A stretch of DNA of 64,000 bases, from NCBI RefSeq assembly GCF_001677475.2, contig NZ_CP015229.1; one strand, written 5' to 3'. How positions within the stretch are numbered: position 1 is the stretch's first letter; every line of letters begins with the position of its first letter. The stretch comes from Escherichia coli. Lineage in GTDB: Bacteria > Pseudomonadota > Gammaproteobacteria > Enterobacterales > Enterobacteriaceae. Position numbers: made by a program. Below, piece after piece: positions 60,001 to 63,000 of the stretch.

Positions 60001-63000
60001 TCCGTGATTGTTACGCTCCGGCCCCACAAACGCGTTGTTGTACATACGACAGACCTGCGCAATGAGATGAGCAAAAAGTTCAGCATCGAGATGCCCGAAC
60101 CAGTGAGCCACCTGCTCGCCATTACTGCGTTTGACAACATCCAGCGATGAGCGGTCTCCGTGCTCCAGCCCTTCGGCAGTATCTGCCCCACAAACATACT
60201 CTTCATCCGGATCCGGCAGTTCCCATACCAGCAGATAATTCATCAGCGTCCGCTGCAACTCGTTTTTATTTCCTTCACGCAGAGACTGAGCTTTAGTCTT
60301 CGCTCCTGTAACAGGTTCAATGTCATAAACAATCATCGGTGGCGAACAGAATGATTCTGCCTGCAACGTACTTTCGGCACTGAACACACGTCGTCCGGAC
60401 GTCAGAAACGCCTCCTGTGGCGTTGAGGGAAACTCCTGCTTCATTTCCTCACGCTGTTCAGTTTCCTTACTGATGTACCACTGCTTCTGCTCATCGGTAA
60501 GCGTGATGTTCATTGCCTTCTCAACCGCAGAAAAATACGTCATTTTTTCCCGTGACAGCTTCAGCCCGCTTTCAGGCACTCTGGCGCTGTATTTAGGATC
60601 CTGCCACCATGCGTAAAAATGGAATTTATAATCCTGTGCCGTCAGCAATAAGCCTGATGCAGTGATCTCCTGTGCACGGTTACTCATCTCGTAAAAATCA
60701 CCACCCACGCCTTCAGCCGTGGATTCATCAAAAATAATGCATTCATCAGAGACGGCATTAAGCGTACCGGTTCGCAGCTCTTTCGCCTTAGCCGGATATT
60801 TCGCGCAAATTTTGCCGTGCTCTGAGATATGCAGGCGCTGCACCGTACCTGAGCGAAATGAGGTTGCCACCTGAATACTCGAGCCGTGACCAAACAGGAT
60901 ATAGCCACCGCTGGCACCGCTACGACGCTCAACGATGGTGAATGAGGCTCTCAGCCAGTCAGGGAGATGATCAAACGGTACAGCAATTTTTGTGCGGAAA
61001 ATTTCACTGGCAGCCTGTTTATCCTGAGCGACGATCCCGCATTTGAGATGCGGAATGAATAATGCCTGGTCGAGAAGATAAATATCAATGGCTGTGGAAA
61101 ATCCCAGCTGGCGCGCTTTCAGGATAATGTTTTTATTATGCATGTTACGAAACAACTGACGTTGCGCCGGTCGCATTCTGAAGGTGACCAGTTCACCTTT
61201 TTCGTTCTGTATTTTGTAGAGATGATTGAGGCGCCACCAGGGATTGCTCAGTTTTGTCATAATGAACAGACGTTGTTCGGTCTCAGTCATTTCTGCAGGT
61301 TCATCACATCGCGGTTTATTCTTCCGGAATGTCATCCAGTCTCCCCGAATTACTCATTTCATGCAGCGATGACACGATGTCACTGACTGGCGTAATAACA
61401 CCCCGGCGCTGGCTGGTCAGAATATCGGTTTCCGCTCTGAGTTTATCTCTGGCGGCGTTGATTCTTTCCCGGTCAGCACGAAGTTTTGGTGCTGTCTCAG
61501 CCAGGACGTCCAGCGTCAGCAATGAGCGTTCAATTGACTCGATACGGGCAATATTCCGGTCAAGGGCCTGTTCAGCTTTGAGTATTTTGTCGTAAAGAGC
61601 AACGCGGTTTTCCACGTCAGTTGCCTCTTCCAGGTCGGCGAACATCCCTTTAAGTGCCTTAGTTACTGAAAGTGCGCGGGCCCGGGTGAACACCAGTTCA
61701 TCGAACAACACCATGTCGGACGCATCATCCATGAGGTTATCTGCCTCAAGATACTTCGCATATCCACGGTGTCTTACTGCGTGGGTGTTTCGCTGAGAAA
61801 AAGCGTTTGAAGGTGGTAAAAGTCGGGAACCTCGAATCCGTTTCGTTTCTGCCGAATTTGCGCAGTTTTTTTCAGAGTTATCTGCGCATTTTTCATCGCC
61901 GGAACCCGCGTCATTGCTGGGTTCTTCATCGGAGATGTCATGATCGATTTCATGATCGGTTTTATGATCAATTTCATGATCGATTTTGCCCATTTTTATA
62001 CGGGTTCTGGCGGTGTTGTAATTAATCTTTTTCTTCCGGCACCAGTCCAGTAATGTTATTCCCGTTTCGGCATGTTCGCGTCGGAATGCCTGCTCCAGCT
62101 TTTTCCAGTCCAGCTTTGCCATGTCACTTTCTGACGTCCTGTGTTAAAAACTGATGCATAATGACCGCTGTGATTTTTCAGATTTCACACAGCAGCACCA
62201 TATTTGATCAATATTTGCACAATGCGGTTGTTTTATCCGGTTTCTTCCACCACCGCACCGGACAGGCAGCTTCGCGGGAAATCGCTCCCATCTCGTGAAA
62301 AATGAGAAAACCCGGTGTGCATCGTTTTTGATTATCCCCGCACACTCACGCAGATAAGGTGGCTGCGGTCTCTGTTAATGCGGAAATACGGCGACGATAC
62401 AACGCTTGAAAAAACTATTTCAGGCACTGAGTACGGATATATTCCTGAAGCGTTCTCAATGCTGCCTGGTCGCTGATGATTCCGTCTCTGATACCGAGAA
62501 CGTTTCGTCCAGCAACTGGAGAGAGTTCGACGCTGGCATCATTGCCCACGCGGGCGGTGGCGGTGGCTTCACGCACGGAGCCTGGACAGGTGGCGTTGAT
62601 CCGCAGGCGCTTACGACCAGCGGTAACATCAGCACGCAGAGTTTCATTTTCAGCTCTCGCATCGGCTAATTCCCTCGAGTATTTTGCATCGAGCGCAGCA
62701 ACATCGTGCTGGCGCTGCTGCATATCAGTAATGGTGGCGTTCGCCAGCTTCAGCTCACTGACTTTTTTATCGCGCTGCGCTTTGTAAGTGATGGCGTTAT
62801 CGCGGTAATGGTTTGTTGCCAGACACAGCGCACCACAGACCACCAGCAGAATAACGGTAAACGCGGAAAGCATTCGGTTTATGCTCACCCCACCAGCCCT
62901 GCCGAAGTCAACGCCATCCAGGCTATGGAAAGAAAAAGAGCAACCATCATTAGCGAAAATGAAATGCCGACAAGTACACAGAGGCTCTTCACCAGCGTTA

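What the first reader, a model, noticed from the sequence alone, without database searches (positions are those of the whole stretch)
61924..61990. Tandem His/Asp-rich repeat within the putative small terminase
Four 12-nt tandem units encode IDHEIDHKTDHEIDH. Short tandem repeats are prone to slippage and the His/Asp-rich peptide could bind metal; this is unusual inside a small-terminase-like protein.
Basis: seen in the sequence. Interest (0 to 1): 0.25.

Follow-up and report, generated by a model that had tools for sequence, protein, structure and literature searches.

The report
Candidate packaging site inside Stx-phage terminase gene
The His/Asp-rich repeat is real, but it is most likely the protein-level shadow of four Dam-methylatable TGATC(A/G) DNA elements inside the small-terminase gene of a Shiga-toxin-type phage, which probably form the still unmapped site where the terminase recognises phage DNA for packaging, as in phage P1.

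Summary
Four 12-nt units (window 61937-61984, minus strand) encode IDHE-IDHK-TDHE-IDHD, residues 47-62 of a 268-aa small terminase (TerS, phrog_370) of a 933W/Sp5-type Stx prophage. Copy number varies among near-identical E. coli alleles (1, 2, 3, 4, 5 and 7 units), but about 95% of complete genomes carrying the segment have 4.

The metal-binding idea is not supported: His/Asp are not conserved in homologues, and the repeat opens a predicted disordered linker.

What is conserved is DNA. Relatives from E. coli, Citrobacter, Serratia, Yersinia and Aeromonas carry 5-7 copies of TGCGCA at the same place (TTCGCA in Pectobacterium, YGATCA in Salmonella). The copies are read in up to three reading frames, far exceed synonymous-recoding expectation, and are almost absent from flanking DNA.

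The query's units read TGATCG/TGATCA on the + strand, which is the hexamer of the phage P1 pac site. That site also lies in the small-subunit gene (pacA) and is also read as Asp-His/Gln. The PacA and TerS N-terminal HTH modules hit each other's profiles. The motif type co-varies with the HTH helix (ARRY, ARTR/Q, AKRY).

Best explanation, inferred and not shown: a P1-like terminase recognition array (pac element) for this headful-packaging phage.

The parts
61316..62122 (-). terS, small terminase subunit gene (268 aa)
   Evidence: ORF. phrog_370 'terminase small subunit' E 5.4e-123, residues 1-268. 222 phage records, almost all Stx-converting phages, at 95% identity or more. RefSeq calls the homologue 'terminase'.
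61985..62122 (-). Segment encoding the N-terminal three-helix DNA-binding (HTH) module, residues 1-46
   Evidence: AlphaFold2 helices 6-20, 24-30 and 35-41, with block-mean pLDDT 74-87 over residues 1-40. Conserved block in alignment A1. Reciprocal profile hits with P1 PacA: query to phrog_1711, E 1.7e-5, residues 5-97; PacA to phrog_370, E 1.9e-4, residues 3-104. The PacA N-terminus gives sub-threshold Pfam HTH hits.
61937..61984 (-). Four 12-nt tandem units encoding IDHE-IDHK-TDHE-IDHD (the finding)
   Evidence: TRF; codon view; residues 47-62, the first residues of the disordered linker.
61941..61982 (.). Four hexamers TGATCG, TGATCG, TGATCA, TGATCG (+ strand starts 61941, 61953, 61965, 61977), exactly 12 bp apart, each with a Dam site (GATC)
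   Evidence: Same hexamer as in the P1 pac site. In-frame reading GAT-CAx gives Asp-His, as in P1 PacA.
61859..61888 (.). Two TGCGCA hexamers (61859-61864 and 61883-61888), 24 bp apart and 53 bp from the TGATCR array, read as Cys-Ala
   Evidence: TGCGCA is the array motif of most relatives, and one or two copies in this Cys-Ala frame are present in most TGCGCA-type relatives examined (E. coli, Citrobacter, Serratia, Yersinia; not the three Aeromonas loci). They are lost in mosaic relatives with a different N-terminal module.
61855..61990 (.). Candidate pac / terminase recognition region (inferred): all six hexamers
   Evidence: Densest cluster of TGCGCA plus TGATCR motifs in the 64-kb window: 6 in 160 bp, against 2 for the best cluster elsewhere in the window. 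The inference comes from the family comparison and the P1 precedent.
61775..61984 (-). Segment encoding the disordered, hypervariable linker (residues 47-116)
   Evidence: pLDDT below 50 for residues 47-116. This stretch is barely alignable in A1.
59629..61335 (-). terL, large terminase subunit gene (568 aa), overlapping terS by 20 nt
   Evidence: phrog_2 'terminase large subunit' E 1.6e-53, phrog_24361 'terminase'. No BLASTP similarity to P1 PacB.

Best explanation
The 12-nt repeat is primarily a DNA element. It is an array of four TGATC(A/G) hexamers spaced one helical turn apart, lying just downstream of the segment that encodes the small terminase's own HTH domain. It most likely serves as the site, or part of the site, where the TerS oligomer recognises concatemeric phage DNA to start headful packaging (pac).

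This is the arrangement known from phage P1, where TGATCA/G hexamers inside pacA are the pacase binding elements and their Dam methylation controls cleavage. The His/Asp-rich peptide is the by-product of reading TGATCA in the frame GAT-CAx. It sits in a disordered linker between the HTH and the coiled-coil oligomerisation core, where almost any hydrophilic sequence is tolerated.

Units are occasionally gained or lost by slippage or unequal recombination, but four copies are kept in most phages.

Shown: the repeat, its polymorphism, the DNA-level conservation of the motif array across the family in several reading frames, its linkage to the HTH type, the profile-level relation to the PacA N-terminus, and the disordered-linker prediction. 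Inferred: TerS binding to the hexamers, the pac function, and any role of Dam methylation.
For: 1. DNA rather than peptide is conserved. At gene nt ~130-300, TGCGCA occurs 5-7 times in E. coli SAQK-type, Citrobacter, Serratia, Yersinia and Aeromonas relatives (TTCGCA 5 times in Pectobacterium). It is the top hexamer there. It is read as A-Q/A-H, V/L/M-R and C-A in up to three frames.
2. Synonymous recoding gives a mean of 0.4-1.3 copies, and 0-1 of 2000 simulations reach the observed number. The remaining ~3.6 kb of each locus holds 0-3 copies.
3. The Salmonella unit AGTGATCAAAAA and the E. coli unit AGTGCGCAAAAA differ only in the central dinucleotide.
4. The residue after the motif alternates Q/H (CAA/CAG versus CAT/CAC), which is wobble just outside a fixed ...CA.
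5. Motif type tracks the third HTH helix in all 103 classifiable proteins but one: ARR[Y/H] with TGCGCA-type peptides (87), ART[R/Q] with D[H/Q] (10), AKR[Y/H] with SQ/IR (5). The exception, P0022, is the 1-unit ARTR allele, which the D[H/Q] count rule scores as AQ-type. The C-terminal core type assorts freely.
6. Relatives with a different N-terminal module lack both motifs in the region after that module and carry other repeats there.
7. P1: the pac site is inside pacA, with TGATCA/G hexamers read as D-H/D-Q. Synonymous mutation of the hexamers reduces packaging (PMC10028697).
8. The TerS and PacA N-termini are related: reciprocal profile hits and BLASTP E 0.003.
9. 933W is a generalized transducer with terminally redundant DNA, so it uses headful packaging (PMC3752737). 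No pac site was found in the literature.
10. The repeat lies in a predicted disordered linker.
Against: No experiment or read-terminus data locate pac in this phage group. PhageTerm on a 933W-like phage returned 'Mu-like' (PMC7946995).

For the query alone the DNA-level signal is modest: 4 YGATCA against 1.58 expected, with 52 of 2000 recodings reaching 4. The case therefore rests on relatives.

Unlike P1, there is only one TGATCR cluster; the second cluster is two TGCGCA, a different hexamer. No IHF consensus site lies between them, while the P1 control was found. TerL is unrelated to PacB, and P1 PacA has ARRY yet uses TGATCA, so the 'code' is not universal.

Linkage of HTH type and array could partly reflect their physical proximity (under 150 nt). 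The ART/GATC switch may be a single evolutionary event. Alleles with 1-2 units exist; if those phages are viable, four hexamers are not strictly required.
Confidence: 0.6

Rival explanations
1. It is a purely protein-level, low-complexity flexible linker. The repeat arose and persists by replication slippage in a region where sequence does not matter. The recurring DNA motifs are leftovers of repeated duplication (and frameshifted copies) of an ancestral unit and have no cis-acting role.
For: The region is predicted disordered and hypervariable in length and sequence. Copy number changes by whole units. For the query alone, codon choice is only mildly unusual.
Against: The same hexamer persists between genera whose TerS proteins are only 38-45% identical and whose linkers cannot be aligned. 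It occurs in up to three frames, with 0-1 of 2000 synonymous recodings matching the count. The hexamer is nearly absent from flanking DNA. It disappears exactly when the N-terminal DNA-binding module is replaced and switches together with the HTH helix. Neutral decay should have erased it.
Confidence: 0.2
2. The array is a cis-acting DNA or RNA element with a role other than packaging initiation. Examples: TerS autoregulation of terS/terL expression, or a Dam/SeqA-controlled switch, since four GATC sites 12 bp apart make a good SeqA target when hemimethylated.
For: DNA-level conservation does not by itself say which process uses the site. The GATC cluster is the densest in the window.
Against: Most relatives use TGCGCA or TTCGCA, which carry no Dam site, so Dam/SeqA control cannot be the family-wide function. 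No promoter-like or terminator-like signal is found in or near the array. The P1 precedent ties such in-gene hexamers to pac.
Confidence: 0.12
3. This is the first reader's idea: the His/Asp-rich peptide is a functional metal-binding segment of the small terminase.
For: Four D-H pairs in 16 residues could in principle coordinate divalent metal. P1 PacA also has D-H pairs at the corresponding place.
Against: His/Asp are not conserved. Most family members have Ser/Ala/Gln/Lys repeats there. Alleles with one D-H pair exist. The segment is predicted disordered. The D-H pairs of P1 are explained by the TGATCA hexamers, whose synonymous mutation affects packaging.
Confidence: 0.04

Closest known systems
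Bacteriophage P1 pac site (HEX4/HEX3 hexamers inside pacA; Sternberg and Coulby 1987-1990; Skorupski et al. 1994, as summarised in PMC10028697)
   Same: It lies inside the 5' third of the small-subunit gene, just after the HTH-coding part. It has the same hexamer TGATC(A/G) with a Dam site, and the hexamers are read in frame as GAT-CAx, giving Asp-His/Gln. The N-terminal modules of PacA and this TerS hit each other's profiles. Both phages are headful packagers and generalized transducers.
   Different: Here there is one regular array of four hexamers at exact 12-bp spacing, where P1 has two irregular clusters (4 + 3) flanking the cut site. The second cluster here is two TGCGCA. No IHF consensus site is present. 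The C-terminal part of TerS and the large subunit are unrelated to PacA and PacB. Most relatives use TGCGCA or TTCGCA, which lack a methylation site. Cleavage and methylation dependence are untested.
Lambda cosB R-elements bound by gpNu1, and SPP1 pacL/pacR boxes bound by G1P (from general knowledge of terminase biology, not tested here)
   Same: These are repeated short sites next to or inside the small-terminase gene. They are bound by the N-terminal HTH of a ring-forming TerS and spaced so that several subunits can engage one DNA.
   Different: The sequences and protein families differ. Lambda is a cos phage and needs IHF. None of these sites is a coding tandem repeat that produces a visible peptide repeat.
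Coding short tandem repeats that vary by slippage (VNTR-like or contingency-type repeats)
   Same: The unit length is a multiple of three, in frame, and copy number is polymorphic (1-7 units) among near-identical alleles.
   Different: One allele (4 units) holds about 95% of complete genomes. The units are not identical to each other. There is no sign of on/off or rapid switching.

Membership tests
Phage small terminase subunit (TerS), PHROG 370 family | Significant full-length profile match | tested here: met
   phrog_370 E 5.4e-123, residues 1-268 against profile positions 1-284. No Pfam family matches.
Phage small terminase subunit (TerS), PHROG 370 family | Gene immediately upstream of, and co-oriented with, the large terminase gene, downstream of the lysis genes | tested here: met
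   terS 61316-62122(-) overlaps terL 59629-61335(-) by 20 nt, with the Rz spanin gene upstream. The order is the same in the annotated O104:H4 prophage, with the portal gene next.
Phage small terminase subunit (TerS), PHROG 370 family | N-terminal HTH DNA-binding domain plus helical oligomerisation core | tested here: inconclusive
   The AlphaFold2 model shows a three-helix N-terminal bundle and long C-terminal helices at pLDDT above 90. No solved structure matches significantly by sequence or fold, and oligomerisation was not modelled.
P1-type pac site | Located within the small-subunit gene, downstream of the HTH-coding segment | tested here: met
   The array is at gene nt 141-183 here. In P1 the hexamers are at pacA nt ~194-233 and ~325-352, with cleavage at nt ~275-285.
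P1-type pac site | Repeated TGATC(A/G) hexamers carrying Dam GATC sites | tested here: met
   Four copies at 61941, 61953, 61965 and 61977, forming the densest GATC cluster in the window.
P1-type pac site | Two hexamer clusters flanking a central cleavage region | tested here: inconclusive
   There is only one TGATCR cluster. A pair of TGCGCA lies 53 bp away, and whether it plays the part of the second cluster is unknown.
P1-type pac site | IHF binding site between the clusters | tested here: not met
   No WATCAANNNNTTR match with up to 1 mismatch in gene nt 100-300. The same scan recovered the annotated P1 site at pacA nt 256.
P1-type pac site | Pacase subunits homologous to PacA and PacB | tested here: not met
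   Only the N-terminal ~100 residues relate to PacA. TerL shows no BLASTP similarity to PacB.
P1-type pac site | Terminase binds and cuts at the site, and cutting depends on adenine methylation | not testable with these tools
   This needs binding, cleavage or virion-end mapping experiments. No published mapping was found.
Slippage-prone coding tandem repeat | Copy number differs among otherwise near-identical alleles, in whole in-frame units | tested here: met
   1, 2, 3, 4, 5 and 7 units observed. The 7-unit allele is a 36-nt block duplication.
Slippage-prone coding tandem repeat | High rate of change (no dominant allele) | tested here: not met
   370 of 387 complete-genome records show no 12-nt gap. 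About 40 of 41 IMG/VR relatives have 4 units.
His-rich metal-binding segment | His/Asp conserved among homologues | tested here: not met
   The position is occupied by SAQK, AQS or SQIR repeats in most homologues.

The most novel reading that the evidence does not exclude
The whole TerS family (Stx phages of E. coli, and prophages of Salmonella, Citrobacter, Serratia, Yersinia, Pectobacterium and Aeromonas) carries its pac recognition array inside the linker-coding part of terS. Recognition has been re-targeted several times by paired changes in the third HTH helix and the hexamer core: ARR[Y/H] with TGCGCA, ART[R/Q] with TGATCA, AKR[Y/H] with TTCGCA. This would be a natural, readable specificity code for terminase-DNA recognition. 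In the Stx-phage branch the switch created four Dam sites, putting packaging initiation under adenine-methylation control as in P1.
Probability: 0.45. Interest if true: 0.65.

Novelty: new variant of a known kind. Interest (0 to 1): 0.45.

Why it matters
Short-tailed Stx phages spread Shiga toxin genes and can carry out generalized transduction, yet I found no report of where their packaging starts. A defined ~140-bp candidate pac element makes this directly testable by pac-plasmid transduction, synonymous recoding and virion-end mapping. It would help predict which host DNA these phages mobilise.

The family-wide pairing of HTH helix and hexamer offers a compact natural system for studying how small terminases choose their DNA, a question that is still poorly resolved for most phages.

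It also carries a general caution: a striking peptide repeat can be the translation of a DNA site rather than a protein feature.

Tried and rejected
- **Metal-binding peptide:** rejected, because His/Asp are not conserved.
- **Phage-encoded Dam methylase in the window (as in P1):** no ORF of at least 120 aa carries a [DNS]PP[YFW] motif. A related O104:H4 prophage has only a methylase pseudogene fragment. Host Dam would therefore have to act.
- **IHF site between the hexamer clusters:** none found.
- **Promoter or terminator in or near the array:** none found.
- **Direct evidence for genome ends:** Stx2 phage I (AP004402) and two sister records end 459 nt past the TerS match, but the record is circular with an arbitrary origin inside terL and has no annotated terminus.
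- **Literature searches** for a mapped pac site of 933W-type phages, or for TGCGCA with terminase, found nothing relevant.
- **Fold and sequence searches against the PDB:** only non-significant coiled-coil matches.
- **Per-site variability among close relatives:** uninformative. The whole 5' 290 nt is nearly invariant, and the ungapped comparison beyond that was probably confounded by misalignment or a module boundary.
- **One script timed out** and was rewritten.
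Full report
**Observation**

The repeat exists. Tandem Repeats Finder gives window 61934-61986, period 12, 4.4 copies, score 78. 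It lies on the minus strand in ORF 61316-62122 (268 aa). The four units are ATCGATCATGAA, ATTGATCATAAA, ACCGATCATGAA and ATCGATCATGAC (window 61937-61984). They encode IDHE-IDHK-TDHE-IDHD, residues 47-62.

The ORF is a small terminase. It matches phrog_370 at E 5.4e-123 over its full length, and it overlaps the large-terminase gene 59629-61335(-), which matches phrog_2. An Rz spanin gene and a P22-antirepressor-like gene lie upstream. The DNA is 95-99% identical to more than 200 Stx-converting phages of the 933W/Sp5/VT2-Sakai type.

**Copy number**

Among near-identical E. coli alleles I found these unit numbers:

| Units | Source |
|---|---|
| 1 | P0022 |
| 2 | P0016 |
| 3 | L087, a complete genome |
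| 4 | the query |
| 5 | L033; P0039, a cluster of 57 sequences |
| 7 | P0001/L091, a 36-nt block duplication |

All changes are whole 12-nt units, as expected from slippage or unequal recombination. The locus is still strongly modal:
- In 5,426 complete E. coli genomes, 387 records carry the segment.
- Of these, 370 align at 95% identity or more, with no 12-nt gap. Only 17 fall in the 90-95% band, and the sampled ones there are 12 nt shorter.
- In IMG/VR, about 40 of 41 close relatives have four units.

**The peptide**

AlphaFold2 with a 29-sequence alignment gives three parts:
- an N-terminal three-helix bundle (helices 6-20, 24-30, 35-41);
- a disordered stretch, residues 47-116 (pLDDT below 50);
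- a confident coiled-coil core, residues 130-238.

The repeat is the first part of the disordered linker. His/Asp are not conserved. Homologues have SAQK/NAQK (E. coli), SDQK/NDHK (Salmonella), AQS (Aeromonas, Serratia, Yersinia) or SQIR (Pectobacterium) repeats at this place. A conserved metal-binding role is therefore unlikely.

**What is conserved is DNA**

Reading the relatives as nucleotides shows a short hexamer repeated in gene nt ~130-300:

| Locus | Genus / type | Motif and count in gene nt 100-300 |
|---|---|---|
| L038, L040, L049 | E. coli SAQK-type | TGCGCA, 5-6 |
| L083 | Citrobacter | TGCGCA, 6 |
| L084 | Serratia | TGCGCA, 6 |
| L086 | Yersinia | TGCGCA, 5 |
| L057, L066, L074 | Aeromonas | TGCGCA, 5-7 |
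| L085 | Pectobacterium | TTCGCA, 5 |
| L082 | Salmonella | YGATCA, 5 |

The hexamer is read in different frames:
- xxT-GCG-CAx gives A-Q or A-H.
- xTG-CGC-Axx gives V-R, L-R or M-R.
- TGC-GCA gives C-A.
- In Pectobacterium the frames give S-Q and I-R.

In a synonymous-recoding test the observed 5-7 copies compare with means of 0.4-1.3, and 0-1 of 2000 recodings reach the observed count. The remaining ~3.6 kb of each locus contains 0-3 copies.

The Salmonella unit AGTGATCAAAAA and the E. coli unit AGTGCGCAAAAA differ only in the two central bases. The Q/H alternation after the motif is simply wobble after a fixed CA. These TerS proteins are only 38-45% identical to the query and their linkers are not alignable. 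Persistence of the hexamer therefore indicates selection on the DNA.

The query gene itself also keeps two TGCGCA (61859 and 61883, read as C-A) 53 bp from the TGATCR array. Together the six hexamers form the densest such cluster in the 64-kb window.

For the query alone the test is weaker: 4 observed against 1.58 expected, with 52 of 2000 recodings reaching 4.

**Link to the DNA-binding module**

Across the protein set, the third HTH helix and the repeat type go together:

| Third HTH helix | Repeat type | Proteins |
|---|---|---|
| ARR[Y/H] | TGCGCA-type peptides | 87 |
| ART[R/Q] | D[H/Q] | 10 |
| AKR[Y/H] | SQ/IR | 5 |

The single apparent exception is the 1-unit ARTR allele (P0022), which the count rule scores as AQ-type. 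The C-terminal core junction type (RGSR or GNPxP) occurs with each of them.

Two relatives have an unrelated N-terminal module fused to the same core (L089, L090). They have no TGCGCA or TGATCR in the region after that module (L089 has one YGATCA match further into the gene, at nt 390), and the C-A codons have decayed to TGC-GTA and TGC-ACA. Each carries another repeat right after its own module: GGTACGAAA three times in two frames, and TGGACGGACG twice.

Physical proximity could explain part of this linkage, and the ART/GATC switch may be one event, so I treat this as supporting evidence rather than decisive.

**The P1 precedent**

On the + strand the query's units read TGATCG, TGATCG, TGATCA and TGATCG at exact 12-bp spacing. 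This is the hexamer of the phage P1 pac site.

That site is 161 bp inside pacA, with seven TGATCA/G repeats carrying Dam sites, an IHF site and a central cut. Synonymous mutation of the hexamers lowers packaging of the P1 genome (PMC10028697; record annotation). In P1 the hexamers are also read GAT-CAx, giving ...IDHSNDQHAGDH... and ...NDRSDDHD... in PacA. Asp-His pairs are thus the usual translation of this DNA element.

The N-terminal ~100 residues of PacA and of this TerS are related:
- the query hits the PacA family phrog_1711 (E 1.7e-5);
- PacA hits phrog_370 (E 1.9e-4);
- pairwise BLASTP gives E 0.003.

The remaining parts are not related, and TerL is not PacB-like.

**Biology of the phage group**

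933W transduces chromosomal markers, and its virion DNA appeared terminally redundant, which means headful packaging from a pac site (PMC3752737). I found no paper that maps this site. One PhageTerm run on a 933W-like phage gave an unhelpful 'Mu-like' call (PMC7946995). Deposited virion genomes carry no terminus annotation.

**Conclusion**

The best-supported reading (confidence about 0.6) is that the tandem repeat is a terminase recognition array, and that the His/Asp peptide is its passive translation in a tolerant linker. The array would be part of the pac site of this Stx-type phage, built like the P1 hexamer clusters.

Differences from P1 keep it from being filed as a P1 pac site:
- one regular cluster rather than two;
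- a second cluster of a different hexamer;
- no IHF consensus;
- unrelated large subunit;
- no methylation site in most relatives.

TerS binding, cleavage and Dam control are inferred, not shown.

Rivals:
- a neutral slippage-prone linker (0.2), which fits the disorder and polymorphism but not the cross-genus, cross-frame motif conservation;
- another cis-acting role such as autoregulation or SeqA/Dam control (0.12);
- metal binding (0.04).

**Novelty and score**

The repeat has been in public sequences of well-known phages since 1999, and pac sites inside terS genes are a known kind. The specific proposal appears unreported in the library searched and is directly testable. That proposal has three parts: a P1-like hexamer array as the pac element of 933W-type Stx phages; a family-wide in-gene array; and an array that switches hexamer together with the HTH helix. 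I rate it a new variant of a known kind, interest 0.45.

Noticed in passing
window 29420-29470: Perfect hairpin GGCTGATC-GTGA-GATCAGCC containing two GATC sites, with a third GATC about 20 nt further on. This is the second densest GATC cluster in the window. Its gene context was not examined.
   Followed up: no
window 62195-62223: An 11-nt repeat GCACAATATTT (2.6 copies, TRF) around the 8-bp palindrome TTGATCAA, which contains another TGATCA. It lies in the 290-nt gap between the Rz gene and terS, about 220 bp upstream of the array. No sigma-70-like promoter or terminator was found there.
   Followed up: partly
window 63715-63736: Exact tandem duplication GTGAGATGCGC x2 (TRF score 44), just upstream of the antirepressor-like gene 63033-63605(-).
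   Followed up: no
window 62456-62662 (-), inside Rz 62415-62888 (-): A 68-aa ORF in another frame of the Rz spanin gene, with a lipoprotein-like start (..LVVSACGS..) and a proline-rich stretch. This is the usual embedded Rz1 outer-membrane spanin.
   Followed up: no
terS gene nt ~285 (window ~61838); proteins P0004, P0008, P0016, P0039: The N-terminal module (HTH plus array) and the C-terminal core of terS recombine independently. The junction types ...KRIRGSRLLPP... and ...KRNSRSGNPHP... both occur with the DH-type and with the SAQK-type N-terminus.
   Followed up: partly
L089:1501-1860 and L090:1501-1860: Mosaic relatives with unrelated N-terminal DNA-binding modules carry their own short repeats right after that module: GGTACGAAA x3 in two reading frames (L089) and TGGACGGACG x2 (L090). 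They lack TGCGCA/TGATCR in that region; L089 has one YGATCA match further into the gene, at nt 390. These may be cognate sites of those modules.
   Followed up: partly
window 63033-63605 (-): A P22 antirepressor N-terminal domain protein (PF10547 E 1.7e-45, plus ORF11CD3) is encoded among the lysis and terminase genes, as in the annotated O104:H4 Stx2a prophage.
   Followed up: no
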